Below the pieces are notes generated by a model. That model did no database searches and was not told the DNA's origin. It saw only the letters and a program-made list of their open reading frames with translations. Both the position numbers and the translations under genes were made by a program. Below are positions 26,864-45,149 of a stretch of 45,507 nucleotides of DNA, one piece after another (positions within the stretch are counted from its first letter, which is position 1; the number at the start of each line of letters is the position of its first letter). This stretch comes from Pseudogymnoascus verrucosus (taxonomy: Eukaryota), in assembly GCA_001662655.1 (NCBI GenBank), contig KV460284.1. One strand, written 5' to 3'.

Positions 26864-26960
26864 GTAAGTTCTCGTGGCCACCGGCGAGTCAATTGATCAA
26901 GTTTGATTTGACCAGACAGATTAGATCTACCGCTAACGACTCCCGCCAGCCAATCTACAG
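26864..26960 (+). other. Putative 5'-UTR intron of the desaturase gene
   Basis: GTAAGT donor at 26864, GCTAAC branch point near 26932, CTACAG acceptor at 26960, about 200 bp upstream of the ATG at 27162. Confidence 0.6.
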
Positions 26961-27161
26961 CCCCGGGTTCCTGCGTTAAAGAAACCTCGGACCCAAAAAA
27001 GACGAGAATCGTACCAAAAATTCCCCCAACAAACGCCTCCACGCCCCCCGACCCGAAGGGAGCACCCGACTTATAAAACATCTCCCGCAAGCCCCTCCAC
27101 CTCCATCTCTTACCTTTTACAACATCCCCCCGGGTCGTCGATTCTCTCACATCCCACAACC

Positions 27162-28679
27162 ATGGCCTCCTCAACAGCCATCCCCCGCCGTGATGGCCTC
27201 CGCCGCACCGCTGCCGCCGCCGCAGCAGCAGCGGATTCCTCCCCCTCCACCGCGGACGTGTCTCCCACCGACAGCCCGCGCGCCTCTCCCTCCTCCTCCT
27301 CGCTCTCCTCCATGTCGTCCATCGACAACGATGTCTCCGCCAAGTCCACAACATCGACAAAGCTGATCGACACCTACGGCAATGAGTTCCAGCTCCCCGA
27401 CTACGCGATGGGGGATATCATCCGAGCCATCCCCAAGGAGTGCTTTAAGCGCAACACCGCCCTGGGTCTCTACTACGTCGCCCGCGACATCGCCTGTCTC
27501 GCCACCACATTCTACCTCTTCCACACCTTCGTCACCCCCGAAAACGTACCATCCACCCCTGCCCGCGCGGCCCTCTGGGCGGTGTACACTGCGATCCAGG
27601 GTCTCTTCGGGACTGGCCTCTGGGTGCTGGCTCACGAGTGCGGACACCAGGCTTTCTCGCCCTCGAAGGTCGTTAATGATACTGTCGGCTGGGTCTGCCA
27701 CTCCGCCCTCCTGGTCCCCTATTTCTCCTGGAAGATCTCGCACGGGAAGCACCACAAGGCTACGGGGAACATGGAGAAGGACATGGTTTTCGTCCCAAAG
27801 TCTCGCGAGGTGTACGCGAACCGCATTGCGAAGTTTGTGCATGAGCTTGATGAGTTGACTGAGGAGACTCCTATTGCCACTCTCTTGCATTTGGTTGGAC
27901 AGCAGTTGGCGGGGTGGTGGTTGTACCTCTTTGCTAATGTTACTGGACATAATCACCACGAGAACCAGAAGGAGGGACGCGGGAAGGGGAAGAAGAACGG
28001 GTATACGACTGGTGTCAACCATTTCAACCCCGCCAGCCCGCTCTACGAGGCTAAGGATGCGAAACTCATCGTCCTGAGCGATATTGGTGTTGGACTTACC
28101 ATCGCAGCTCTTGTTTGGGTGTCCAAGACCTTTGGAGCGGCGAATATGTTCGTTTGGTACTTCATCCCGTATCTCTGGGTTAACCACTGGCTTGGTATGT
28201 CATCCCCCATTTAACCCCTTTCAACTCCCCAGAAGAATATAAGTCTAACAACCCCCACAGTCGCTATCACCTACCTCCAACACACCGACCCCTCCCTCCC
28301 CCACTACCAGCCTTCGTCCTGGAACTACGTCCGCGGTGCCGCCGCCACCATCGACCGCGAATTCGGCTTCATCGGTCGCCACCTCTTCCACGGCATCATC
28401 GAGACTCACGTCCTCCACCACTACGTCTGCACCATCCCCTTCTACAACGCCGACCTCGCCTCCGAAGCCATCAAGCCCGTCATGGGCCGCCACTACCGCG
28501 CCGATGTGGAGGGAGGGAGCTGGGGCTTCCTGAAGAGCATTTGGAAGAGTGCTAGGTGGTGTCAGTGGGTTGAGCCGAATCAGGAGACACTGGGGAAGGG
28601 AGGGGAGGCGGAGGGGGTGCTGTTTTTTAGGAATAGGAATGGGTTGGGCGTGCCGCCGGCGAAGGTTGCTAAGGCATAA
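27162..28679 (+). CDS. FAD2: Delta-12 (oleate) fatty acid desaturase; exons 27162-28194 and 28261-28679
   Basis: Three His boxes HECGH, HGKHH and HVLHH; LIDTYGNEF; intron GTATGT..CTAAC..ACAG joins WVNHWL-VAITYLQHTD; AAATIDREFGFIGRHLFHGIIETH. Confidence 0.93.
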
Positions 28680-30033: not shown

Positions 30034-32135
30034 ATGGCTACTATTGCTTCGATTAACCCGTTTCCAAACGATGTACGTACTGCTTTTGAAGCCTATATAA
30101 GCAGCTCTACCTACTACAACCGTGAGCAGTTATCACACGCAAAATGGAGCTAAATCCGTACTATTCTTGAGAATCCTACAGCCTATACACCATATAATAG
30201 AGAGACTAGTAACCTTAAAAACCGTACGCAATCTACCTTTGAGCTTATTAATAATAAGATCTATAAGAGTGATATTCGGCATCTACAGCCTCGATATGTA
30301 GTATAGAAAGCAGAGGTGTTTGATACTATTACACAGGAACACCTTAAGCTCCTACACGCAGGCCGGAATAAGGTAAGCCTTCCTTATATTCTAGCTTAAG
30401 CTCTCGCTCCTACTTTATAGTACTAACTATAAGAAGGTATGGCCTACTATAGAGCAACAGTACTATGGAATAAAGCGAGAGGATGTAGAGTTTATACTCA
30501 AACGGTGTAAGAATTGCACACTTAATAGGCCAAATACTACAAAAGCTCCCTTAGTTCCTATTACTACAGGGCGAGCGTAGGAGCGGGTTCAAATTAATCT
30601 AATTAATATGCGCCACGAGCCTTTAGGGCAGTATAAATGGATTCTACATATAAAGGATCACTTCTCAAAGTATACACAGCTATACCCATTAAAAAGCAAG
30701 CACGTAGAGCCTATTGCAGAGTGCTTTGCTCAATTCATTGCAGCTTTCCTACCTCCGAAGATTATGCAGGCTGATAATGGGAAGGAATTCAAGGGGGCTC
30801 TCTTACTCCTACTACGGAAGTATGGAATACAGGTAGTAAATGGAGCACCATGATCACCACAAACGCAAGGCCTAGTTGAGCAGGCAAATGGAGTTGTTGA
30901 GAATAAGCTCTAGGCATGGAAAATGGATCACGGGTCTACAGAATGGAAGAATGGGCTACTTAAAGTGGTGCTTGCTATGAACACCCAAATCCACTCTACA
31001 ATTAGGTGTGCGCTAGCTGAGCTTCTGTTCCGAGAGCGGAGCTCATACATTGACTGGCTCAATAGTCAGGCCCGGAAGGATCTGTCAATTGGAATTGAGT
31101 AGGAAGACCCAACCATAGGCCCGATATTTGAGAGCGAGCTCTAGTCCGAGCTTGAGTCTGAGACGGAAGCTCCAATCGACCCACGGCTTCGGCAGCGAGA
31201 GCCAGAGCTTAATTATGAGCCTAGCTCTGGTTCTGAGCCAGAGCTCCGAATTGAGCTCAATTCTAAGCTCCGAACCAGAGCCAGAGTTTAATCTAGAACT
31301 CGAGCTAGAGCTACAGCTAGAGCCCAGCTCCAGCTCGAGTCAGAGCTTGAAATTGAGCTCGGAATTGAGCTCAATTCGGAGCTCAATTCGGAGCTCCGCT
31401 CTGGCTCTAAGCGAGAGCTCAAGGCTTTAGGCTCGAGCGCCAGAGCCTAGAATTGAGAGCTCTAGCTCAGAACTCAATTCTGAGCCAAGCACTAGCTCTA
31501 AGCCAGAGCTCCAGCGTGGGAGCCGGGCCCGAGTTCCAACTCAGCTTAGAACTAAGCTTCAGCTTACACTAGATCCTGTAATTGAGAGAGCTATAGTAGC
31601 TACTCAACGAGCAAGGATTTCTATGGTGCGGAAGTATATAAAGAAGCATGATATTCAGCACTTTAATATAGGAGCAATAGTCTCTATTAAGGTTCCTTAA
31701 GAGGATAGAACTTCAACTAATAATAAGAGGCTATTTACAAGAATTCTAGAAGAGCCTTACCCTCATAGGTATCGGATTCTTACAGCTTCTAGTATTATAC
31801 AACGCCTTATTCCTACTAAATCACTAGGAGTTGTAGGGTGAGCTCTATAGGGTGATATAGTAATTCCTACTTCTACTAAGGAAGTAGGCCTAGGGCTTGC
31901 AGCTAGAGAGGCTTCTACAAGTGCTCAGGTTGGAATATCCTGTCAGTGCAAAGGGCTGTGTAGTACGAAGAGGTGTAGGTGTTATAAGGAAGCAAAGGAG
32001 TGTAGTATACACTGCTATAACGATGACCACGACTGTGGCAATTTATCAGGTCTTACTACTCGTACAGAAATAGCTTTAGTTGAGAGGCCTCGTTAGAAAC
32101 GAGCACGGGCAGACACAGTAGGTAATACTACGTAG
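30034..32135 (+). pseudogene. Integrase-like transposase (H2C2 zinc finger, rve core, E/P/L-rich spacer, C-terminal Cys-rich domain) with an intron and many premature stops
   Basis: EHLKLLHAGRNK, intron about 30373-30436, VWPTIEQQYYGIKREDVEFILKRCKNC; HIKDHFSKY, MQADNGKEF, P*SPQTQGLVEQANG; CQCKGLCSTKRCRCYKEAKECSIHC. Stops at 30151, 30578, 30851 and 30911, among others. Confidence 0.9.
31130..31562 (+). repeat. Low-complexity GAGCTC/GAGCCA-rich repeat within the transposase gene
   Basis: Short units GAGCTC, GAGCTA, GAGCCAGAG and AATTCGGAGCTC are iterated. Confidence 0.7.
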
Positions 32136-32741: not shown

Positions 32742-35700
32742 CTAAGATGTCAATACGTCGCCCAACTTCATGTCGCCCTTCTCCTCGTTCAGTAAGGAAA
32801 TCATTTTATGAAATAGATTCAAGATCTTTTGCATCTGCGCTGTTGGGACGACTGTAGCATCGAACCGAGCCTCGAAAAAAACGCCGTCTTTGGCCAGATT
32901 ACACTCCATGACCAGGGCATATGAATCGAAGTCCTTGAGATGCGTCGGACCTACCTCCAAGCCAAGGATACTGGATTGTTCTCCTTGGTCTATGTAGGGC
33001 TGTATCAACAACAGGTGCTTAAAATCGAGTGCTAGTCGGCGGATATTTTGAGGCCCTGTGTGTTCGAATGGTATCATCTCCGCCGCCTGGCTCTGGGCCC
33101 CGTTCAGATAGTCAGGAACAGGTTGTCCTCGATCTAAGCGCATTCTCATCGGCACTGTCGTGAATGTAGGTGCGATTATTTCCATGATCCCTGGCACTGG
33201 CGCATTCCGGCCTGTGAGTGTGACAACGAACAACACATCGTCCGAGTCCGACAACTGCGCAACCACGACAGCCCATGCGGCTCGCACAATAGTTGACGTC
33301 AGCACACTGGAATTCGAACCCCGCATCATGGGCACAAATTGCCGTATGGAATCATTCGGTCGCGGCTGATATGTCGCAGAGGGCAGCGGTGGAAAACTTG
33401 TCGGCAATTTACCACTAAGCTGCGATTGCCAGTACATAGCGGCCCTCTCATGATCTAGACCAGCAAGATAGTGAATGAATCTGTTGTAAGGCACCGGTTG
33501 AGGCACTGAGCCCTCACGATAAATGCGGCTCACCTGTTCAAACAAGGAAGCGGAGCTCCATCCGTCGTATAGTGCATGGTGGACGGTCAACACAAAGACC
33601 CGTGCATCTGCCTGACCGAGAATGGCATATCGGGTAAGAGACTGGCCGTAAGACATCGGAGCATGCTCGTCTTGCTTCAAGTACTCATCCAGAGATCCGC
33701 TTCTGTGCCACGATATCTTCTCTCTGACCACCACCTGGAGAGGCCTTGATCGCGCTGCGGGCACGATCCGCGTTCGTAGGATGGCGTGTACCTCAGCAAG
33801 TCTATCCCATGCCATCTGAAAGCGGCCAAGGTCAAGTGATTGCGGCAACTTGAACACTCTGCGAGCCATGTACGCTTTGTGCTGCCGCGCCGAAATTGCC
33901 ATCATACCCTCTTGCTGGGGAGTGCAAGGATAGACGTCCTCAATTTGGTCCTTCGCCACGTTGCAAATTGCTCCAATTTCCTCCAGTCGATTGAAGTCAG
34001 CGCTGTCGGTTTCTTCCCACAGCCCAAAGGGTGCAATCTCCCTAAGGCTGTCGTCATCTGCCATGTTGCTTTTCTGTGACATGTCAGAGAGCGTGGGAGT
34101 CTGGAAAATTCCTGCCACCGTCAACACGATCCCTTTTTCGCGGGACGCCGCCACGAGCCGCATGGCCCGGATCGAGTCGCCTCCGAGACGGAAGAAGCTG
34201 TCGTCCGCCCCGATCGAGCTCAGCTCTAGATGCAACACCTCGGCCCAGAGCTGCTGTAGCTTTAACTCCATCACTGTCGACGGCGGGCGCTTGGTCCGCT
34301 CGCCCACTGAGCACGCCGTCAGCTGCAGCACAGTCAGCCGCGCACCTAGCTGCCGTAGCCGCAGCCGATCGGTCTTGCCAGAACTCGTCAGAGGCAGGTG
34401 CTGAAGGGGAATGTACACGGCCGGCATCATGTACCCTGGCAACTGTGCAGCTAGGCCGTTCTCTAGCTCTAGCATCTTGTCGTGTATCGCGGCCAACGCG
34501 GACAATGCTAGGTCTGCATCAGCCGTGTCATACTGCCTAACTTCAGTACAAATAAATGCTGCCAGCATCGGATCCCCATCTCGGCAGGTAGGCCGGATCA
34601 TCTCCACTATCAGCTTCCAGTTGCTAGGCACCAACAGCTCTAGGTGGTGCTCAATCTCGCCCAGCTCGAGTCGCTGCCCACGCAGCTTAACCTGCGTGTC
34701 TTTCCGGCCCATGAAGTTCAGCGTGCCGTCTGGGTTGTACCGCACTAGGTCCCCCGTTTTGTAGAAACGTCTTCGGCGGCCTAGTCCAAAGTGCTCTGCC
34801 CACTCAGGGTTCTCGATGAAGACCGCAGTGGTCTTCTCTTGGTCGTTTAGGTATCCGTGGGCTAGGATAGGCCCCTCGATTAGCAGCTCTCCAACGCAGC
34901 CAATGGGCATAAGTCGTTCATGGTTCCCTGGGTCCACTACCCACAACACCGATCCTATCCCTCGTCCGATATTTGCTCCGGACGTATCTGGTTGGAGCCC
35001 ACCAAGACAAGAAGAGAAAACTGTGCATTCCGAAGGTCCATATACACTAACCAGGTACACGCTATCCGCCCATCTTTTAACAACACCTTGTGTGGTAGCC
35101 TCTCCACCAACGGCGAGAAACTTGAGGCCTGGAACATCCTTAGGTCGAACTAGGTTAGCCACCGACGACGTAAGGTGGGCTACGTTAATTTTCATCGTCC
35201 TAATTACTTTACCTAGATTGTCCATCTTGTCTTTCTCAGATGGCACGCAAACGCAACCACCATGAACAAGCGTGCTAAAGATCTCTGCCAGGCTAAGGTC
35301 AAACGTATATGCGGCGAACTGTAGCACCCGCGAGTCGAATCCGAGAAACATGGCCGCACCATGCTGCCGTGCAGTGGTGCAGAAAGATGCATGCGTAAGC
35401 ACGACTCCTTTAGGCTTTCCAGTGCTCCCTGAGGTGAAAATGACAAATGCAGGGTCATATGGCCGTGCTTTCTGAACCCCTAGATGAGGAACTAATGGTA
35501 TCTTCCTAAACAATGCTGTAGGGCCAACAGACACGATTTTGTCAACGACCCCTTTGAACAAAGCAGCATTAGCTGTAGAAGAAATGATAAGGTCGGCGTT
35601 AAGGTCAGCGATGATAGCCTGCAATCGGTCAATGGGATGCTTTGGGTCCAGAGAAACACATGCGCCGCCAGCCTTTAGCACAGCTAGCATCGCAACGATG

Positions 35701-38674
35701 GTCCATGCTGACTTCTCGAAGCACAATGGCACGAACTTCTCTGGTCCGACACCGAGGCCAACAAGATGGCGTGCTAGCTGCGTCGACAGCTCATCGAGCT
35801 TGCGATAGCTGAAGCTAGCATCCCACCCATAGACAGCTGGCGCGTCAGGGCGCGCGACGACCTGCTGCGCGACGGTCTCGTGCACGCACGCCTCCACGGC
35901 CTCCGGGCAGTTGCTGTTCCAGGCACAGATGTCTGTCTGGTCCTTTCGATTGATCATTTTGATTTCGCCTACAAGCGCAACTTCATGCTTCCAACATATC
36001 TGATTTATCAGGTGTTCGAATTGCCCAGTAAGTCTTACGATCTGGGGTTTGTCCACGATCTTACTATCAAAACTTACTTTGATCTGAATTCCATCTGTAG
36101 TGAGCGTACATTCCATGACCAATGGATAAGTCTTGTCGTTTTCAAGCTCACTCAGGTATGTCTCGACGCTGCCAATGCGACCTATCTCCTTGCTCCAAGT
36201 TGTTGGGTGTATGACTAACAAGTTCTGAAATTCGCACGCTGATTGGGTCTCCGAATTGATAGCTTTGATATTAAGGAGGCCGTATTGCTCGAAAGGGATC
36301 ATAGTAGTAGCTTGTTTCTGCAACACTTCTAGATACTCGCTTATGGTCTGGTTGGGATGAATATTGACACGGAAAGGTACAGTTGCGATCGTAGGCCCGA
36401 CGATGTTCTCAATGCCAGACACTGGTGCGTTTCTTCCTGCGATGGTTACACCGAACACAACAGTATTGCTGTTTTCGTACATAGACATCAGAAGTGCCCA
36501 TGCTGCACGGATTATGGTCGGGGTGGTTATGTCCGTGTTTGTGGTCCGTGATATGCAAATTTGGTGCTTGTAGGAACTTTCCACCGTCGTCGTACACATC
36601 GCTCCTGTAACGATTGGAAATGTTGATGGTTGTGAGCTGGATAATTGTGACTGCCAGAATGCTCTCGCCGCATCACCATTCGCGCCTTCAACATGCTTTA
36701 CAAAGCTGTTGAAGTTGGTCGGATTGGGAACCGTCGCACCTTCATACAGTTGAAGAAGGGTTTTTATGATCAACGATAAAGACCAACCGTCGTATATGCA
36801 GTGATGCATCGTCCATACCAGATAGGATTGCGCGCTGGTAATATCATTCACTATGGCGCATCGATTTAATGGTTCTCCGAAGCTCATAGTCAGCCGCTTG
36901 TCATTTTCAAGATATGTCTGGAGATCCGAGCTGACCGCCCAGCTCGGATGCTCCTGGATAACCACTTGAAGCATTTTCCGTGAAGAATTAGACTGCACTA
37001 TTCTTGTACGTAAGATGGGTGAGGATTTCACAGCGGTCTCCCAACAGGCGCGGAACCGGTCCACGTCCAGCGTCGACTTAAGTGAGATCAGGTGTTGGGC
37101 CACATATGCGCCAGTTGTCCTGATAGAGAGGGCCATGAGTGATTCTTGTAGAGGTGTACATGGGTACAAATCTGCAATATTGTCCCGATGTACGGTACAC
37201 ATGGCAGCAGCCTCATCAACGATGGTGTCGGTAGCTTCATGCCCACTTGAAATTTCAAATGGCATTAGGTCAACGTGGGTTGATTTCTCGATTCCAGTTG
37301 CGACCAAGGACAACTCAGATATTGTCGAGTTGGCAAACAAGTCTGCAACGGTAAACTGGACCCCGTGTGCTCGCGATGCAGCTACGAGCGATACTGCTTG
37401 GACAGAATTCCCACCGAGTCGGAAAAAGTTGTCCTTCAGTCCTATGGTATCCACATCCAATTCCAAGATTTCGGCCCAAAGTCTCTGCACCTTCACTTCC
37501 ATTTCCGTTAATGGTGCCAATTTCTCAGTCGACGTATCTCTCATGTCCAGCACGAGCTTCCTTGAAATAATACGTGCTGCCGTGTGCCTGAAAAGTTGCA
37601 GCGTCTTGACAATTTTTTCTCGCAGGGCAATGCGATCTCCTAAATAGAGAAACCCGGCCAACCAGGGCAGTAGCTTCACGAACATCCTCCATGGCCACCC
37701 AAAAATTGATGTACCAGCGACATTTGCGCTGTTTACCTTCAAAATTCCACTGGCGCATCTTTTGGGTTGTTGTTTTGCCAAGATAAACCGTCGATTCATG
37801 CTCCGGATCAACTTGTAAAACCAGAAGCAGTTCATGACACTTAACGCCGCAACAGCGAGAGAGGTGGTGAATGCCAACCACAGCGGAACGCAACCTTCCT
37901 GAGTAGCCTGACATGTATCAGACGGGTTTCTGTTCGCCAGACCCATGACACCAGAATCGAAACTGATCGGCGAGTGATTTTTGCAATAAGAGGTCCAGAT
38001 ATCGTGGTAAAGACCCAAAGACTGATAGTTCCCGCATATTATACGAGACCAAAAGAAGACGAACAACAATGCAAGGCCATTACAAAGTTGTACATTACAA
38101 CCAGTCATATCCAACATGTCACAAAACCAATGAACTTGAAGGAACGGATTCGAAAGCTGGTAAAGAATACCCCATGGCGCGTAGAACTGGAGAAACGATT
38201 GCTGTACGCATAATTAGTGAGCGCTGCAAGCGTTTCATATGGTAGAGGGTGTCATTGTATACATACAGAGGACGCACATAGAAGACCTAACGTGCATACA
38301 GAATGTAGCAACATTCCTGTACCAAAGGATCTAGTGTTCTTCATCATGGTGATCAAATCCCATAGATAATACCCCATAGAATACCCGGTAAGCATGCCCG
38401 CCTTCTTGCTGTACCCCCACAACCTCTCTTGGGCGTCTGTCATGTTCGATCTCTCTTGGTCATTCAGAACCACCCAGAGGGCCATGCCGCAGATGAAGGT
38501 TGAGTGTAGGAGTGATATGATGCGAATATTCCATTGCGTCTTCGTATGTGAGTAGGTGGAAGCACGCCAGTGGGGAAAGAAGTAGCTCAAGATTCGTGGT
38601 TGAACAACCCAATTCATAAGGCAACAAGCACCAAACATGAAGCTAATCTCCCGAGTGTGCCATGAGAAATCCAT
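32742..38674 (-). CDS. TLC-domain/NRPS fusion, TLC-T-C-A-T-C (about 1955 aa); exons 38674-38267 and 38201-32742
   Basis: Intron GTATGT..CTAAT..TACAG (38266-38202) joins the TLC exon (WNIRIISLLHS, ERLWGY, GYYLWDL, GMLLHS) in frame to QSFLQFYAPWGILYQLSNPFLQVHWFCDMLDMTG..NG..FFWSRIICG and on into the 1791-aa ORF. T1 FFRLGGNS, C1 HHCIYDG, A (FTSGSTGKPKG, YGPSE, YKTGDL, SGKTDR), T2 FFRLGGDS, C2 HHALYDG. Confidence 0.85.
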
Positions 38675-38940
38675 AGTAGTCGTATAGGTTGCGGCTAGTT
38701 CTCTCTTATCTCGTGTGGTGTAGAGAAAATGTAAGCAGAAAAGAGTTTACCGTCTTGGGTGTGAGGTGAGATCTCGAAGATATGGGATTTTATCAAAGTA
38801 AATATACTTTCCTAGGCCAAGTAAGTGGGCGCTTTTCGTTTGCAAAGCTACGAAGTTCGTAGGAAGTAAAGCGGTTAATCCTTGTAATAGTCAATGCGAA
38901 AGTCTCCTGAAACTAAGGGATAAATCTAAGTGTTCAAGAA

Positions 38941-39146
38941 AGTGCCGTAGGGGAATCCAATATATTGAAGCCGAGGCAGGTCAGCCGGGTGTTTGTTTCA
39001 CCCTGCTGTGTTGGACCTCTTCCGAGGGGTCCACGGCCCATGACTTGGGGGGGAATAATGGATAAGTCTGATTACCCAGATAGTGCCATAGGGGAATCCA
39101 ATATACTGAAGCCGAGGCAGGTCAACTCGGTCTTTGTTTGCACCCT
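38941..39146. repeat. Direct repeat (2 x about 64 bp, period about 141 bp) in the divergent NRPS/ABC intergenic region
   Basis: AGTGCC(G/A)TAGGGGAATCCAATATA(T/C)TGAAGCCGAGGCAGGTCA..GGT(G/C)TTTGTTT..CACCCT at 38941 and 39082. Confidence 0.85.
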
Positions 39147-39501
39147 TAGATCGTGAAGACGGAGACGGTATTGCTCCTCATCGATCAAGTGACCAGAGTC
39201 AAGGTGCTCAACAGTCTGCTTCAGGAGTTTTGAACCTCATCAACTATGGCGATCACGTCTTGAGCCACACTCGCAGTGCCCATGTAAGCCAGGACGTAGG
39301 CATTGGCTCCACGATCCACTGCATCGCAGCGGCAGCTAAATGCATCATCTAGAGTGAAGGCATATATACTAGCGCTACTAGCCCTATGTCAATGTCACCG
39401 TTGCCGGGGGACTCGAGGACAAAATAATCACGGTTAAGAATATCCTTTCTTAAAAGATTAAGGGGTGTTCTTAAATGAGGGGATGAAGAAACAAAGACAA
39501 A

Positions 39502-39752
39502 GCGACCCCGTATCATCCTTCGCAAGCCATGCCCTAAGCTTAAAGATTCACTGCGACCCCGCATCAACCTTCGCAAGACATGCCCTAAGCTGAAAGGTTT
39601 AATTGGACCCCGCATCATCTTTCGCAAGCCATGCCCTAAGCTTAAGGTTCAATGCGGCCCCGCACAACCTTCGCAAGCCATGCCCTTAAGCTTAAGGCTC
39701 GAATGCGTACCAAGCTTCGCAAGCCATACCCAAAGCCCAAGGTTTGATGCGC
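39502..39752. repeat. Minisatellite, 5 x about 50 bp
   Basis: Unit GCGACCCCGCATCA(A/T)CCTTCGCAAGCCATGCCCTAAGCTTAA(A/G)G.TT near 39502, 39553, 39605, 39654 and 39705; the last copy is degenerate. Confidence 0.9.
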
Positions 39753-40322
39753 AGAAGCGGGTCAGGTGGCACGCTAGAAGCCGGCTCATTATCCGAATTT
39801 AGTCTAAAACATGCCAAGGATCCCTGTCAGGGTCCTTACTAATAAGGCCTTATCCCCATGGGGTATTAGACCACACCACTAAAGTACCCACATGTGGAAA
39901 CGGCGTCCGGCATAGAGCCGCCTGTCGAGTTAAAGATGGGTAAACGATGCGTCACAGAAGTTAAGTCTGCATCTACACAGACAGTCTTACCCTTCAGCTT
40001 ACCAGTATGCCCCGCTTGGGAAGATTTCGCAGGCAGAGAGACGACAATCCCGTTTCATCTTCTCCACCATGTGACGCCGCTTTGTCCTCTGGGTTCATTT
40101 GCGGGAGGGTTCGTTCGTCCACCTCTAGGGCCTTCTCTATTCTCCGATTGACCCAGGTGACAGCAGTGGTGAGTATCCCAGCATGCCCGAGTATAACAGT
40201 AGGTGGAGCTGCCGTGGTTTCCAGAGGCTAGAAAACTGGACACTTAACCGAACAACCCTCATCACCTTCTAATCTCTCTTCTACGAATATTCCGCTTCAC
40301 TAGAAATGGCAGCAACCGCATC

Positions 40323-43300
40323 ATGACTTTGATGGGCTGTCTTAACGACGACACCTTTGGACCAGTTGTCCAGGGGTGTCGCGACGACTTCGACTTTACG
40401 CAGAAGTTTGAGAGGATTTTATTCACTGCAGTTCCTGCTTCGGCTTTCATACTCGTGGCCATAGTCAGGGTATCTCACCTGGCCCAAAAACCGCGATTAG
40501 TGTTGGCGACGCCATTTCAGCTCGTCAAAATTGTAAGAGGCTATTTGTGCCAAATAAAAACGCAAAATCTTTGAGCGCAGTACTAATTTATGTCCAGCTG
40601 ACGATTATTATCTATGCTGCTTCTCAACTGTCTCTTCTAGTTCTCCTGAGCATCGTGGACGCGGCTGCTGTACGTAGCTTTTCTATTGCCGGGATAGCTC
40701 TGGCCTTTACTGCTAGTCTCCTCATGATCGCCGTATCATTTCTCGAGCATGCACGATCACATCGAACGTCAGCCCTTCTTAATATTTACCTCCTATTTAC
40801 CTTGCTCTTTGATATTGTCCAGGCCCGAACATTATGGCTTGTAATAAATTCTCGAAGCCAGGCTATATTTACCTATTTGTTCACAGCCTCGATCACCATA
40901 AAATTGATTGTCCTCGTCCTCGAAACTCACAGCAAGGCTAGATGGATTATCTGGGACGAGAAAGAGCACAGCCCTGAAGAAACAAGCGGAATCTACACCC
41001 TGTCTGTCTACTATTGGCTGAAGCAGCTTTTTTTACGAGGGTATAAGAGCATTTTACGCTTCGACGACTTGTACGGTCTAGATAGCGCAATGAGTGCGGA
41101 GACCACAGCCTCAAAGCTAATAGAGAAGTTAAATGATCAGAAACACCATGGTCAAAAGCCTTCTTTACTAAAGGCCCTTTTCAGAGCATTTTCTTGGCCG
41201 TTTTTGCTGCCCGTCTTTCCCCAAATTGCTCTTATCGCCTTCCAGTATTCTCAGTCATTCTTTCTGGAGACTTTGATTGAATATCTGGAGCGACCAGATC
41301 ATGAGTCGTCTAAGAATATGGGGTATGGTCTTATTGTTGCATGTGCGCTGATATACCTCGGAATGACAGTATCTACCTCTTTTTACGCCTATCACAGTCA
41401 GAGAGCGGCGTCCATGGCCCGTGGGAGCTTGTGTGCAGTCATCTACAAAAAGACCACCGAAATAACCACCGCGACTGCTACCGACACGGCCTCGGTCACG
41501 TTAATGAGCACTGACGTGCAGCACGTTGAAACCGGCATTCGCCTTATGCACTTCATGTGGTCCAGTTTGATACAGGTTGGACTCGGATGCTGGTTGCTCT
41601 ACACAAAACTTGGTGTCTCGTTCGTAGCACCTATCGTCATCATGTGCTTATGCTCCGGCATTCTTCTCTGGGTAATGACATTTGTTCAGAGTCGCCAGAG
41701 TGTCTGGATGGGAAAGATAGAAAGCAGAGTCGGCCTCACGGCCAACGTAATCTCCAACATGAAATACTTCAAGATGTTGGGCATTTCGGACCATGTAGCG
41801 GACTTGATACAGGACCTACGAGAGGAGGAGATTCGGGCCGGAACCAAGTTTCGAATCCTCTTGTTGGCCGCCTTCGGCCTCGGCTATATTCCGTTGTCCA
41901 TATCGCCAGCGGTCACATTTGGGCTTACATTTAGAAACCTCGATGCCTCGACTCTGTTCGTTTCGTTGTCTTTTATGACACTTCTAACGACTCCCTTGTT
42001 GCAACTTTTTCAAGATCTACCTCAATGCCTAGCCGCCCTGACCAGCCTCCATCGCATCGAAGCATATTTAGCGAAACAGCCTTGGGAAGATTTTCGCCAT
42101 CGGGATGCGCCCGGAGCTTCTGAAGGCCAGGTTATAGATGACCACAAGTCCTGGACTTCTGAAACCGCACTGGTGGAACTTCATCGCCCGGATCTCACAC
42201 ATGCTGCTAGACATCAAGCCGGTGTCCTGCCATCGTCCCAAGAGCCAGCATTCGAGATAGAAAATGGTTCGTTCGGTTGGGACGAGAGCAAAATGGTATT
42301 GAAAGATATTGATATTGCCTTCCCCAGCGGCAAAATGTCGATAATTGTTGGACCAATCGCGTCGGGAAAGTCAACTTTATGCAAAGTTCTTTTGGGTGAA
42401 GTTCCAATAGCCTGCGGAAGCACAAAAATTAAATTCCCCAACTCCCCTATCGGTTACTGCGCGCAAACGCCATTTCTCTTGGACGCGACCATAATGGAAA
42501 ACATCATTAGCTATTCTCGATTTGATCAAAAGAAGTACGATGCAATAATTACTGCCACTATGTTGAGTGTTGATGTAGCAAACCTACCATCTGGTCATCA
42601 CACCAAGATTGGGAGCAATGGAATCCTTTTGAGCGGCGGGCAGAAACAACGCGTGTCGTTGGCAAGGGCTCTTTACCTTGAATCGGAAGTCCTGATATTC
42701 GATGATGTGTTTAGTGGACTGGATGCCCCTACTGAGACAGAGGTCTTCAAGCGAGTCTTTGGCCCAGACGGGATCATCCAACAACGGAGGGCTACATCAA
42801 TATTATTCACTCACTCGGTACGCCATCTTCCTTTCGCGGATTACGTCGTCGTTCTTGGGAGCGACGGCGGAGTCGTCGAACAGGGACCGTTTGATACACT
42901 TGCCAACAACGGCAAATATGTATCGAGCCTCGGCGTCATGACAACCACCCCAGATACCAATAGAGTGTCGAAGGCGGAAGATATACCGAAAGTTTCAATC
43001 CAACGCAAGACTCTACTAGAGATGAATAACGCCAATCAATACAGGCAAACAGGCGATTGGTCGATTTATGCACACAACCTATGCCGTGATTCCGTATTCG
43101 GGGGAGCCCTCAACTTGAATTTCTTGATCCCTGAAGAGTTACCGGAAGTTTCAATCCAGCACAAGGCTCCACTAGAGATGAATGACGCCGACCAAAGCAG
43201 GCAAGTAGGCGATTGGTCGATTTACATACACTACCTACGCAATGTCGCGACACGATCCGTTGCCGCGTGCATTATCCTTTGCATAGTGAGTGGAACTGCC

Positions 43301-45149
43301 GCAAACTTTTCCACAGTATGGGCGTCGTTCTGGTCCGAAAATTCTTTCGATCGACCAACAAACTTCTATGTGGGATTATACGGCTCAATACGTGCTTTGG
43401 AGCTCTTTTCCATACTTGGCGCGGTTGTAGGGCTGGTGCACATGGTCTCATCATCCGGATCAAATCTCCACAGACAGGCCATCATTACCGTTGTAAGGGC
43501 ACCGTTGAGCTTTTTTACTACAACAGACACCGGTACTGTAACGAATCTATTTTCGCAGGATATGACTCTTATCGACGGAGAGCTACCGCTAGCCTTTATA
43601 AACACCTTTCTTGGTGTCGTTATTCTAATCGGGAACTGCTTTGTCGCCGCCATTGCATCGCCATATCTCGCAATAAGCTATCCATTCGTGGCTGGCATAC
43701 TCTACGTGATCCAAGTATTTTATCTCAGAACATCAAGACAGCTGCGATTGCTTGATCTAGAAGCAAAAAGCCCACTATAGTAATTCGCTAGAAACAATCC
43801 ATGACCCCAATGCCGATCCACTAACTTGACTGCAGCAACCACTTCATCGATACAACAAGAGATCTCGCTACTATCCGGGCTTTTGGATGGGTAAAAGATG
43901 AAATTGATACTAGCAATAAGTTTTTGAATGCGTCCCAGCGACCGGCGTACCTCCTGGCCATGATTCAAGCTTGGTTGCAGACGAATCTCACAATGCTGGT
44001 TGGGGTGATTGCCATCTGTCTTACCACGCTCGCCACCCAGCTCAGGACGAGCTCGAGCTTCACTGGAGCTAGTTTGCTCACGTTGATGAGTTTAGCGAGC
44101 ACAGTGGCAGCTGTGATGCAGAGCTACACTCAACTTGAGACGTCCATTGGGGCAATCAACCGACTGAGGACGTTCAGCCAGAAGGTTAAGCCCGAAGACG
44201 GGAATGACGCAAACATGCCCATTCCAGAATTGTGGCCTACTTATGGTAGTGTATCGCTCAACGCTGTATCAGCATCATACAGGTATGGCTGCAGTACGCT
44301 TACTCTTGCAACTACAAGCTAACATATTTTCCTAGCACTAAAGCTGCAGATGCGGATGATAAGTCGACCGGTAAAAGCCCTCAAGCCCTCGCTTTAAACA
44401 ACCTTTCTCTATATATTCGGCCAGGGGAGAAGGTTGCTGTTTGCGGAAGAACTGGCAGGTGAGTTTCCCTCAAACATATACGCGCTAAGCTTAATGTCTG
44501 ACGTTAAAAAAGTGGAAAATCATCTTTGATGTTACTTCTCCTACGCCTCCTCGACCCTTTGCCAGGTTCGGAGAACATAGAAGTCGATGGCATACCTATT
44601 CATCAAGTTCACCGTTCAACTCTCCGGCAACGATTCATAACCGTTCCTCAGGATTCCATCTTCCTTCCGGGGGTAAGCAGTATCAAATTCAACCTCGACA
44701 CCCTCAGCTCGGCCACAGATGAGGAGTGCATATCAGTGCTCGAGACAGTTCAGCTCTCCAGCTTCGTCCGAGCGTGCGGCGGTCTCCACGCACCAATGAG
44801 CGCCGATAGTCTCAGTGCGGGACAACAGCAGCTTTTTGGCTTGGGCAGGGCCGTCCTGCGACGAATATTGCGAGACAAGATGGGCGGGCCGAGGGGGGGT
44901 ATTCTCCTGCTTGACGAAATGAATTCTAAGTTGGATAAAGACACAGACAGAATCACGCAGGAGATAGTTAGAGAGCATTTTGCGGATTATACTGTCATTA
45001 TGGTAGCCCACCGGCTGGATATAGTGATGAACATGTGTGACCGGGTGTTTGTCCTAGATAAGGGCACGCTGGTTGAAGAGGGCAGTCCGAAGATGCTGGC
45101 TGCAACGAGCGAGAGTCGGTTTGGGGAGCTTTGGAAGGAAGATGCCTAA
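40323..45149 (+). CDS. ABCC/MRP-type ABC transporter; exons 40323-40532, 40598-43779, 43836-44282, 44336-44458, 44513-45149
   Basis: N-terminal DDTFGPVVQGCRDDFDFTQKFE; NBD1 GPIASGKS, LSGGQKQR, IFDD; NBD2 GRTGSGKSS (across an intron), LSAGQQQ, LLLDE, VAHRL. Four GT-AG introns keep the frame. Confidence 0.93.
42986..43240 (+). repeat. In-frame internal duplication in the ABC transporter linker (period 156 bp)
   Basis: PKVSIQRKTLLEMNNANQYRQTGDWSIYAHNL versus PEVSIQHKAPLEMNDADQSRQVGDWSIYIHYL. Confidence 0.9.

What the first reader, a model, noticed from the sequence alone, without database searches (positions are those of the whole stretch)
32742..38674. TLC (TRAM/LAG1/CLN8) membrane domain fused in frame to a T-C-A-T-C NRPS
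Seen: after one canonical 65-nt intron (38266-38202), a complete-looking multi-pass TLC domain continues with no stop into T-C-A-T-C. Both carrier serines (GGNS, GGDS) and both HHxxxDG motifs are intact. Known: the TLC family includes acyl-CoA-dependent acyltransferases such as the ceramide synthases Lag1/Lac1, and fungal lipopeptide NRPSs such as echinocandin EcdA start with a T0-C that receives a fatty acyl chain from a separate enzyme. Inference: the TLC domain sits where the starter-loading activity should be. This suggests a membrane-anchored NRPS that makes an N-acyl amino acid or transfers an aminoacyl unit onto a lipid. I do not know this architecture from characterised NRPSs.
Basis: partly seen in the sequence, partly recalled or inferred. 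Interest (0 to 1): 0.92.

Follow-up and report, generated by a model that had tools for sequence, protein, structure and literature searches.

The report
Membrane TLC domain fused to NRPS slice
A soil fungus carries one continuous gene that joins a lipid-enzyme-like membrane domain to a middle piece of a peptide-assembly enzyme, a combination found nowhere else, but the piece lacks its usual start and finish and may be a young evolutionary accident.

Summary
On the minus strand, exon 1 (38674-38267), a 65-nt intron and exon 2 (38201-32742) give one 1955-aa frame: TLC, about 60 residues of linker, then T-C-A-T-C with all core motifs intact. The same fusion is annotated in two Pseudogymnoascus assemblies. 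I found it nowhere else in three large protein searches.

- The TLC part is TLCD/CLN8-like ("DUF887"), not Lag1-like.
- It keeps the acyl-carrying His, the TM3 Asp and the TM6 Arg. The near-invariant TM5 Glu is Gln (121 of 123 homologs have Glu).
- The NRPS part looks like a middle slice of a longer synthetase. Relatives have an A domain where the TLC sits.
- The last C is elongation-type, not release-type.
- The gene stops in the C-A linker, next to transposon debris.
- No RNA data were available.

Best reading: a real, lineage-restricted chimeric gene encoding a membrane-anchored, cytosol-facing NRPS fragment. Whether the TLC domain loads or unloads the first carrier is open. Interest is moderate.

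The parts
38267..38674 (-). Exon 1: start codon, TM1, and the N-terminal half of the TLC domain. It holds the TM3 Asp (YYLWD) and the acyl-carrying His (MLLHS).
   Evidence: Translation. Pfam PF03798 profile 1-93, E 4.7e-13. Alignment to family members. Residue counts: Asp in 56 of 67 homologs, His in 70 of 75.
38202..38266 (-). 65-nt phase-0 intron, GTATGT...CAG, with a CTAAT branch site.
   Evidence: Its position coincides with insertions in 4 of 20 full-length homolog models, and with the point where P0153 leaves the alignment. The public models use the donor at 38299 instead.
37752..38201 (-). Start of exon 2: C-terminal half of the TLC domain (TM5-TM7). It has Gln in place of the family's TM5 Glu (LYQLS) and keeps the TM6 Arg (WSRII).
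   Evidence: Pfam profile 97-198, E 2e-14. Counts. Mapping to CLN8 E167/R204 through and PMC13661276.
37566..37751 (-). Linker of about 62 residues with no detectable homology to TLC or NRPS. It is basic (+8 over residues 160-215) and has one weakly hydrophobic segment (KD 1.13).
   Evidence: TLC matches end near residue 150. NRPS homology starts near residue 212. No A10 remnant: 161 of 500 shuffles score at least as high. No alternative-frame remnant. Hydropathy. Codon score.
37302..37565 (-). A-T-type interdomain linker plus carrier domain T0 (GGNS, Ser266).
   Evidence: PP-binding at residues 237-298. HMM of A-T junctions aligns from residue 212. 36-38% identity to T domains of relatives.
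35931..37175 (-). Condensation domain C1 (HHCIYDG), elongation type.
   Evidence: Pfam residues 343-757. Best solved matches are McyB, TycB and BacC C domains. Groups with internal C domains.
34332..35867 (-). Adenylation domain, complete, with the A4 Asp (FDLS) and the A10 Lys (SGKTDR).
   Evidence: Pfam residues 779-1118. End-to-end alignment with LgrA A domains. 60-64% identity to the A domains of P0055.
34077..34274 (-). Carrier domain T1 (GGDS).
   Evidence: Motif at 1340. 85.5% identity to the first T of P0055.
32742..34004 (-). Condensation domain C2 (HHALYDG) and the stop codon. It is elongation type by sequence, although it is last in the protein. The ORF ends in what is the C-A linker in relatives.
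   Evidence: All 12 of the top 12 BLAST hits are internal C domains. It lies in a clade of 15 (support 98) whose other 14 members are internal. No NRPS remnant lies downstream.
38675..40411 (.). Shared upstream region between the fusion gene and the divergent ABC transporter. It holds a 62-nt direct repeat and a 51-nt x5 tandem array.
40412..45149 (+). Divergently transcribed ABCC-type ABC transporter (TMD0, two ABC_membrane, two ABC_tran domains; several exons). Candidate exporter.
   Evidence: Pfam.
30581..30850 (+). Fragment of a retroelement integrase core (rve) in low-GC DNA, 1.9 kb beyond the 3' end of the fusion gene.
   Evidence: Pfam E 1.2e-8. GC 0.39-0.43.

Best explanation
This is a genuine, lineage-restricted chimeric gene. 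Rearrangement in a transposon-littered region joined a divergent TLCD-type (CLN8/TLCD1/'DUF887'-like) seven-helix membrane domain in frame to a middle slice, T-C-A-T-C, of a multimodular fungal NRPS. The TLC domain took the place of the upstream adenylation domain, and the downstream module or release domain was lost.

Shown:
- one open frame;
- all NRPS core motifs intact;
- TLC His, Asp and Arg kept, but the TM5 Glu replaced by Gln.

Inferred:
- If made, the protein sits in the ER membrane. The TLC C-terminus, and therefore all NRPS domains, would be on the cytosolic side, which is where the TLC cavity opens.
- The TLC part acts mainly as a membrane tether or lipid-facing platform with an altered acceptor site.
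- The single A domain charges T1, and possibly T0.
- C1 joins the T0- and T1-bound units.
- The elongation-type C2 needs an outside nucleophile or partner to release the product at the membrane.
- The neighbouring ABCC transporter may export that product.
For: - Continuous ORF and domain order.
- The intron position is conserved in the family.
- The fusion is identical in a second assembly. That assembly's odd annotated stretch is only an alternative reading frame of the same DNA.
- The linker is coding-like and rarely open by chance, and no intron signals lie in it.
- Relatives carry an A domain upstream of the homologous T. NRPS homology resumes in the A-T linker.
- C2 is elongation-type. 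The closest relative, P0055, continues with A-T-C(SHAQYDG) after the homologous C.
- No NRPS remnants flank the gene, and an rve fragment lies downstream.
- TLC residue states.
- Topology: the tail after TM7 carries +6 charge and the linker's hydrophobic segment is weak. The CLN8 cavity opens to the cytosol (PMC13661276, passages read).
- A divergent ABCC transporter is adjacent.
Against: - There is no transcript evidence at all.
- The gene is known only from two nearly identical strains, so purifying selection cannot be shown.
- An NRPS slice without its own loader for T0 and without a release-type C may make nothing.
- Retention of the His, Asp and Arg argues that the TLC part could be more than an anchor.
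- The N-terminus is about 30 residues shorter than in family members.
- The TLC domain differs at 8 of 38 conserved columns, against a family median of 5%. Only 5 of 64 homologs are as divergent. This fits decay as well as it fits new function.
Confidence: 0.4

Rival explanations
1. Evolutionary accident without a product. The fusion is recent, the frame is still open only because too little time has passed, and the protein is either not made or makes no metabolite.
For: - The fusion is restricted to one species-level lineage.
- The loading A domain and the downstream or release module are both missing.
- The conserved TLC Glu and Asn are lost, and the N-terminus is shortened.
- Transposon debris is adjacent.
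- Similarity to P0055 is mosaic (T1 85%, C2 41%), which suggests recombination.
Against: - 5.9 kb of coding sequence has no stop or frameshift.
- Every NRPS core motif is intact.
- The TLC His, Asp and Arg are kept.
- The junction preserves the whole A-T linker and T0.
- A paired ABC transporter is intact.
Confidence: 0.3
2. The TLC domain takes a fatty acyl group from acyl-CoA onto its His and passes it to the phosphopantetheine thiol of T0, which is chemically the same arm as in CoA. C1 then forms N-acyl-aminoacyl-T1, and C2 releases a lipoamino acid or its conjugate.
For: - The TLC replaces a loading (A) domain directly upstream of T0.
- TLCD enzymes work by a ping-pong mechanism through an acyl-His, with a cavity that opens to the cytosol (PMC11838012, PMC13661276 and PMC11919693, passages read).
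- The His, TM3 Asp and TM6 Arg are kept.
- Loss of the TM5 acid could reflect loss of the lipid-acceptor pocket only. In CerS6, Asp242 (TM5b) binds the acceptor (PMC11919693). That the TM5 Glu here corresponds to CerS6 Asp242 is my inference.
Against: - For TLCD1, the paper says that all variants tested except D98A were impaired in forming the acyl-enzyme (PMC11838012). I could not see which residues were mutated, so Gln at the Glu position may block the first step.
- C1 groups with ordinary peptide-elongating C domains.
- No TLC enzyme is known to acylate a thiol or a carrier protein. That is from my own knowledge; searches found nothing.
- The docking prediction never ran, so it bears on nothing.
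Confidence: 0.17
3. Dlt-like direction. The A domain charges T0 (and T1). The TLC domain treats aminoacyl- or peptidyl-S-T0 as its 'acyl-CoA', takes the unit onto its His and puts it on a membrane lipid, giving an aminoacyl or peptidyl lipid.
For: - T0 is tethered next to the cytosolic mouth of the TLC cavity (PMC13661276).
- There is a precedent for a carrier protein handing an aminoacyl group to a membrane acyltransferase: DltA/DltC/DltB. I saw only search listings and abstract starts (PMC11035591, PMC9338922).
Against: - The acceptor-side TM5 Glu, which this model needs most, is the residue that is lost.
- The TLC acyl tunnel is built for hydrocarbon chains (PMC11919693).
- No direct evidence supports this direction.
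Confidence: 0.08
4. Two products. Despite the open frame, a TLC-only mRNA ends in the linker and an NRPS-only mRNA starts there, for example at the Met just before T0. The fusion would then exist only on paper.
For: - An in-frame Met lies about 17 residues before T0.
- The closest TLC relative, P0150, ends about 15 residues after the last TLC helix.
Against: - A TLC mRNA ending in the linker would have no stop codon.
- The unexplained gap is only about 190 nt, too short for a terminator plus a promoter.
- Two public annotations call one gene.
- The linker has coding-like codon usage.
Confidence: 0.05

Closest known systems
TLCD-type TLC proteins: fungal 'DUF887' proteins, and by the papers read, yeast YPR114w/ALE2, human TLCD1 and CLN8
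   Same: - Pfam PF03798 match.
- Collinear with 361-369-aa fungal DUF887 proteins at 36-38% identity.
- CLN8 is the only solved relative found by profile search, E 5e-4.
- A model of homolog P0149 (pLDDT 85.7) has the ceramide-synthase fold, TM-score 0.58-0.60 to yeast CerS.
- The acyl-His, TM3 Asp and TM6 Arg are present.
   Different: - Fused to an NRPS.
- TM5 Glu is Gln, the FLN Asn is Gln, and the RPF Arg is Gln.
- The N-terminus is about 30 residues shorter.
- It sits at the divergent edge of the family.
Fungal multimodular NRPSs of the A-T-C-A-T-C(T) kind (P0087 and P0088 at about 2230 aa; P0055; P0031 and P0032)
   Same: - The T-C-A-T-C region is collinear at 41-46% identity over 85-100% of its length.
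- Its A and T1 domains are 60-85% identical to those of P0055.
- All core motifs are present.
   Different: - There is no A domain before T0. A TLC domain sits there instead.
- There is no downstream module or release-type C. In 166 C domains of relatives, the terminal ones carry SH (17) or QH (10) and rarely HH (2). This protein's last C is HH and groups with internal C domains.
Lipo-initiation modules of fungal lipopeptide NRPSs (EcdA and EasA type T0-C start; recalled, not fetched)
   Same: The synthetase begins with a carrier and a C domain, so T0 must be loaded by something other than a cis A domain.
   Different: - In the known cases (recalled), separate soluble ligases or transferases load T0.
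- Here C1 looks like a peptide-elongating C domain.
- No comparison with a known starter C domain was made.
Dlt pathway of Gram-positive bacteria (DltA adenylation, DltC carrier, DltB membrane MBOAT)
   Same: A carrier protein presents its thioester to an integral-membrane acyltransferase. I saw only listings and abstract starts (PMC11035591, PMC9338922).
   Different: - The membrane enzyme belongs to a different superfamily (MBOAT, not TLC).
- The proteins are separate.
- The system is bacterial.
- The resemblance is functional only, and is hypothetical here.
Ceramide synthases (Lag1/Lac1, CerS)
   Same: Same fold superfamily and the same His-based ping-pong chemistry (PMC11919693).
   Different: - The second His of the Lag1p HH pair is Ser here, and Ala or Gly in the DUF887 family (33 each of 73).
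- No CerS chain matches the family profile at E<=10.

Membership tests
TLC domain (PF03798) superfamily | Significant match to the family profile over its whole length | tested here: met
   Profile positions 1-93 on exon 1 (50 bits) and 97-198 on exon 2 (54.5 bits); the cut-off is 24.6.
TLC domain (PF03798) superfamily | Seven-helix ceramide-synthase-like fold | tested here: inconclusive
   Only the homolog P0149 could be folded (pLDDT 85.7, pTM 0.82). It matches yeast CerS at TM-score 0.58-0.60. The spliced protein itself was not folded. Its hydropathy peaks agree with those of the homolog.
TLCD acyltransferases (TLCD1/CLN8 type) | Acyl-carrying His in TM4 (CLN8 H138, TLCD1 H117) | tested here: met
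   The His in MLLHS aligns with the family His, present in 70 of 75 homologs. Mapping through, PMC13661276 and PMC11838012.
TLCD acyltransferases (TLCD1/CLN8 type) | Acidic residue in TM3 (CLN8 E117, TLCD1 D98) and Arg in TM6 (CLN8 R204) | tested here: met
   Asp in YYLWD (56 of 67 homologs have Asp). Arg in WSRII (150 of 151 homologs have Arg).
TLCD acyltransferases (TLCD1/CLN8 type) | Glu in TM5 (CLN8 E167) | tested here: not met
   Gln in LYQLS, where 121 of 123 homologs have Glu.
Ceramide synthase (Lag1/CerS) type | Lag1p motif with an HH pair and paired Asp residues | tested here: not met
   The second His position is Ser. The profile of the family hits CLN8 but no CerS chain at E<=10.
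Nonribosomal peptide synthetase | Carrier Ser motifs, C-domain HHxxxDG, and complete A-domain core motifs | tested here: met
   GGNS 263, GGDS 1340, HHCIYDG 466, HHALYDG 1541, A3 924. Pfam. The A domain aligns end to end with LgrA.
Self-contained NRPS assembly line | A cis loading domain for the first carrier, and a release domain (C_T, TE or R) at the end | tested here: not met
   There is no A domain before T0. The last C groups with internal C domains: 12 of the top 12 BLAST hits are internal, and it sits in a clade of 15 with support 98. No TE or R domain appears in Pfam.
Lipo-initiation (starter C) module | First C domain of the starter type that accepts an acyl donor | tested here: inconclusive
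   C1 groups with internal C domains of relatives, and its best solved matches are peptide-forming C domains. No known fungal starter C domain was included in the comparison.

The most novel reading that the evidence does not exclude
The TLC domain is a working catalytic partner of the first carrier domain. The phosphopantetheine arm of T0 is the same moiety as in CoA, so it could enter the cytosol-facing TLC cavity and exchange an acyl or aminoacyl group with the active-site His. Acyl groups could flow in from acyl-CoA, or aminoacyl groups out onto a membrane lipid. That would make this the first NRPS with an integral-membrane TLC-type loading or off-loading domain, producing a lipoamino acid or an aminoacyl lipid at the ER membrane.
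Probability: 0.22. Interest if true: 0.85.

Novelty: new variant of a known kind. Interest (0 to 1): 0.5.

Why it matters
If the fusion protein is made and active, it would tie nonribosomal peptide assembly directly to a membrane acyltransferase fold. That fold was only recently shown to work through an acyl-histidine intermediate (TLCD1, CLN8, CerS6). An active fusion would give a natural test of whether a carrier-protein arm can substitute for CoA in such enzymes, and it could point to a new route to lipoamino acids or aminoacyl lipids.

If it is not active, it is still a clean example of how NRPS genes are cut at A-domain borders and pasted to unrelated genes in transposon-rich DNA. It also shows that public gene models for this locus are wrong in their splice site and start.

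Tried and rejected
- **RNA evidence.** No RNA holder was listed. Laying runs X1 and X2 gave only short contigs (36500-36702, 37149-37672, 38754-38998) and no joints. Nothing can be said about expression or splicing.
- **Whole genome.** None is held for this window.
- **JGI metagenome scan** with the TLC half, linker and T0: 30 pattern matches, none confirmed by tblastn.
- **A remnant of the lost A domain in the linker.** By eye, GDRIALRE resembles the A10 region. A profile of 236 A-T junctions gives the linker -2.4 bits, and 161 of 500 shuffles score as high. No alternative-frame remnant was found. Rejected.
- **NRPS remnants outside the gene.** tblastn with six relatives found nothing outside better than E 0.14.
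- **An intron in the linker.** The GTAAAC site at 37736 is a poor donor, has no CTRAY branch motif, and its acceptors give mixed frames. Rejected.
- **Pseudogene in VKM F-103.** Its odd 130-residue stretch is the alternative frame of DNA that the window also has, so it is an annotation artefact.
- **Protein atlas** on residues 1-400 of P0003: the best score was 0.83, to carrier proteins only. Uninformative.
- **Earlier scan notes:** nothing for this genome. One unrelated TLC fusion in a protist was not used.
- **TLCD1 paper supplement.** The one supplementary file held as text, searched for the list of mutated residues, gave no hits.

Full report
**1. What is in the sequence**

On the minus strand a frame is open from 38213 to 32742, 1823 codons from stop to stop. 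An ATG at 38674 opens a 136-codon exon that ends at 38267. A 65-nt intron follows at 38266-38202, reading GTATGT...CAG with a CTAAT branch site. Exon 2 then runs 1819 codons to the stop at 32742-32744.

Pfam places TLC (PF03798) profile positions 1-93 on exon-1 residues 47-135 (E 4.7e-13). Positions 97-198 fall on exon-2 residues 2-133 (E 2e-14). Downstream come PP-binding (two stretches), Condensation (two) and AMP-binding. In exon-2 numbering the motifs are GGNS 263, HHCIYDG 466, A3 924, GGDS 1340 and HHALYDG 1541. The A domain aligns end to end with solved A domains, including the A10 Lys.

**2. Gene model**

Two public annotations give this gene as one product. They are P0003 (Pseudogymnoascus verrucosus, 1881 aa) and P0004 (Pseudogymnoascus sp. 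VKM F-103, 1807 aa). Both are 100% identical to the window over the TLC half, linker and T0.

Both models start at later Met codons and use a donor 33 nt further upstream, which removes 11 residues. Four of those 20 homolog models carry an insertion at exactly this point, and P0153 leaves the alignment there. I read this as an intron at a conserved position.

The strange 130-residue stretch in P0004 is the alternative frame of DNA that the window shares. It is an annotation artefact, not a frameshift.

**3. Is the fusion more than chance?**

TLC homology ends near exon-2 residue 150, and NRPS homology begins near residue 212. The 62 codons in between match nothing.
- A profile of 236 A-T junctions scores them at -2.4 bits, and 161 of 500 shuffles do as well.
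- The other two frames hold no remnant.
- The stretch is open in only 514 of 20000 shuffles, and 692 of 10060 flanking non-coding windows are open.
- Its in-frame codon score (0.076) equals that of the TLC exon (0.067) and beats 98% of 164 non-coding windows.
- From 37850 to 37450 there is no branch-site motif and there are only two weak donors.

I conclude that the fusion is real at the DNA level. No RNA run was available, and the contigs laid on the region showed nothing about splicing.

**4. How rare it is**

- A word-indexed search of 5.8 billion proteins with the TLC half, linker and T0 gave 28 hits of 1000-3184 aa. Only P0003 and P0004 carry PF03798.
- A search with the NRPS part listed 120 proteins, and again only those two carry PF03798.
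- An exhaustive HMMER scan of 1.84 billion cluster representatives with the TLC half plus linker gave 321 hits. Of the best 150, only P0004 is longer than 498 aa.
- JGI metagenomes gave nothing.
- Full-text searches for 'TLC domain' with 'nonribosomal peptide' or 'NRPS' each found one unrelated paper. A search for membrane-anchored NRPSs found three unrelated ones.

**5. The TLC part**

Family. The nearest standalone proteins are fungal 'DUF887' proteins of 361-369 aa at 36-38% identity. Two closer fragments come from unnamed sources: P0153 (63% identical to exon 1 over 164 residues by tblastn) and P0150 (58% to the exon-2 half). A profile of the family matches CLN8 among solved structures (E 5e-4) and no ceramide synthase at E<=10. 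A model of homolog P0149 (pLDDT 85.7) has the ceramide-synthase fold, TM-score 0.58-0.60 to yeast CerS. The domain therefore belongs to the TLCD/CLN8 branch, not the Lag1 branch.

Known chemistry. The papers I read in passages show that TLCD1, CLN8 and CerS6 are acyl-CoA-dependent ping-pong acyltransferases with an acyl-His intermediate. Their cavity opens to the cytosol (PMC11838012, PMC13661276, PMC11919693). CLN8's active site is given as E117, H138, H139, E167 and R204.

Residues in the fusion, mapped through:
- It keeps the His (70 of 75 homologs have it).
- It keeps the TM3 Asp (56 of 67).
- It keeps the TM6 Arg (150 of 151).
- It has Gln at the E167 position, where 121 of 123 homologs have Glu.
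- It has Gln for a neighbouring Asn (119 of 127).
- It has Gln for the Arg/Lys of 'RPF' (84 of 95).

Overall divergence. The domain differs at 8 of 38 conserved columns, against a family median of 5%. Five of 64 homologs are as divergent. It also lacks about 30 N-terminal residues that relatives have.

Topology. The segment after the last TLC helix carries +6 charge, and the only hydrophobic stretch in the linker is weak (KD 1.13). With the cytosolic C-terminus of this fold, the NRPS domains should be cytosolic, on the side where the cavity opens. This is inference.

**6. The NRPS part**

Relatives reach only 41-46% identity overall. They are A-T-C-A-T-C proteins of about 2230 aa, or longer synthetases. 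An A domain therefore stands where the TLC domain now is.

T0-C1 and T1-C2 are 38% identical to each other. Both C domains best match peptide-forming bacterial C domains, and the fungal cyclising TqaA C_T scores lower.

Among 166 C domains cut from relatives:
- Terminal domains carry SH (17), QH (10) or HH (2).
- Internal domains carry HH (109), SH (12) or NH (1).

The fusion's last C domain is HHALYDG. Its top 12 BLAST hits are all internal C domains, at 308-385 bits. The best terminal domain scores 302, and the median is 123 for terminal against 267 for internal domains. In a FastTree of 164 C domains it sits in a clade of 15 (support 98) whose other 14 members are all followed by an A domain. 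The 28 terminal domains form three clades of their own.

The closest relative, P0055, matches A-T1-C2 at 54%, with T1 at 85% and C2 at 41%. After the homologous C it continues with A-T-C(SHAQYDG).

The fusion gene stops in what is the C-A linker in relatives. No NRPS remnant lies beyond either end. An integrase fragment sits in low-GC DNA 1.9 kb downstream.

The NRPS part is thus a middle slice. It has no cis loader for T0 and no release-type domain.

**7. Surroundings**

An ABCC-type ABC transporter is transcribed divergently from 40412. The shared 1.7-kb upstream region holds a 62-nt direct repeat and a 51-nt x5 tandem array. The other genes in the window look like housekeeping genes: a FAD2-like desaturase, HPP, SHR3, a sugar transporter and a GH38 mannosidase. 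No second NRPS or tailoring gene is in the window.

**8. How it most likely works**

*Shown:* one open frame, intact NRPS chemistry, and a TLC domain with its nucleophile but without its TM5 Glu.

*Inferred:* the protein, if made, is an ER-membrane-anchored, cytosol-facing T-C-A-T-C.

My weights for the readings are:
- **0.40** — A real chimeric gene in which the TLC part serves mainly as a tether or lipid-facing platform, and the slice works only with outside help. The A domain charges T1 and perhaps T0, and C2 hands the product to an external nucleophile.
- **0.30** — A young accident that makes nothing.
- **0.08** — A Dlt-like off-loading model.
- **0.05** — Two separate products.

The loader model has a real attraction. 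The arm on T0 is the same moiety as in CoA, and the residue lost in the TLC domain may belong to the acceptor pocket rather than to the first half-reaction. The TLCD1 paper, however, reports that most active-site variants also lost acyl-enzyme formation. I also could not run the docking test.

**9. Novelty and verdict**

The architecture is new. It is known only as unremarked database entries labelled 'NRPS' or 'hypothetical protein'. It is built from two known kinds of parts and occurs in one lineage, with signs of being a cut-and-paste product. I file it as a new variant of a known kind, with interest 0.5. The bold reading (probability about 0.22) would deserve about 0.85.

Noticed in passing
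window 38267-38674 and 38202-38299: Both public gene models for this locus (P0003, P0004) start at internal Met codons and use a donor 33 nt upstream of the better-supported one, which deletes 11 residues of a TLC helix. The VKM F-103 model also reads about 130 residues of the A-T region in the wrong frame.
   Followed up: yes
window 39502-39749 and 38937-38998 / 39078-39139: The region between the fusion gene and the ABC transporter holds a 51-nt unit repeated five times in tandem (61-86% identity to the first copy). It also holds a 62-nt direct repeat at 89% identity, 141 nt apart. Contigs of run X2 have loose ends at 38935 and 38998.
   Followed up: no
window 30581-30850 (+) and 31203-31512: A retroelement integrase-core fragment (Pfam rve, E 1.2e-8) lies next to a patch of short palindromic and direct GAGCTC-rich repeats, in DNA of 39-43% GC. 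This is transposon debris between the fusion gene and the desaturase gene.
   Followed up: partly
window 26937-28679 (+): A fatty acid desaturase gene is read as two ORFs in the same frame, separated by a single stop at 28212-28214. The stop probably lies inside an intron. Atlas look-alikes are FA_desaturase clusters, some with DUF3474, which suggests a FAD2-like enzyme. It sits 4 kb from the fusion gene and is probably housekeeping.
   Followed up: partly
window 32745-35399 against P0055: Similarity to the closest NRPS relative is mosaic. The carrier T1 is 85% identical and the A domain 60-64%, but the adjoining C domain is only 41%. This is what recombination at domain borders would produce.
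   Followed up: partly
window 37460: A contig of run X2 ('organism A') covers 37149-37672 with one difference (A>T on the plus strand). By my reading of the codon, it changes Leu248 to Met in T0.
   Followed up: no
P0150 C-terminus, compared with window 37700-37760: The closest relative of the exon-2 TLC half ends about 15 residues after the last TLC helix. I cannot tell whether that is a true stop (an unfused gene) or read-through into an intron. The contig could not be fetched.
   Followed up: no
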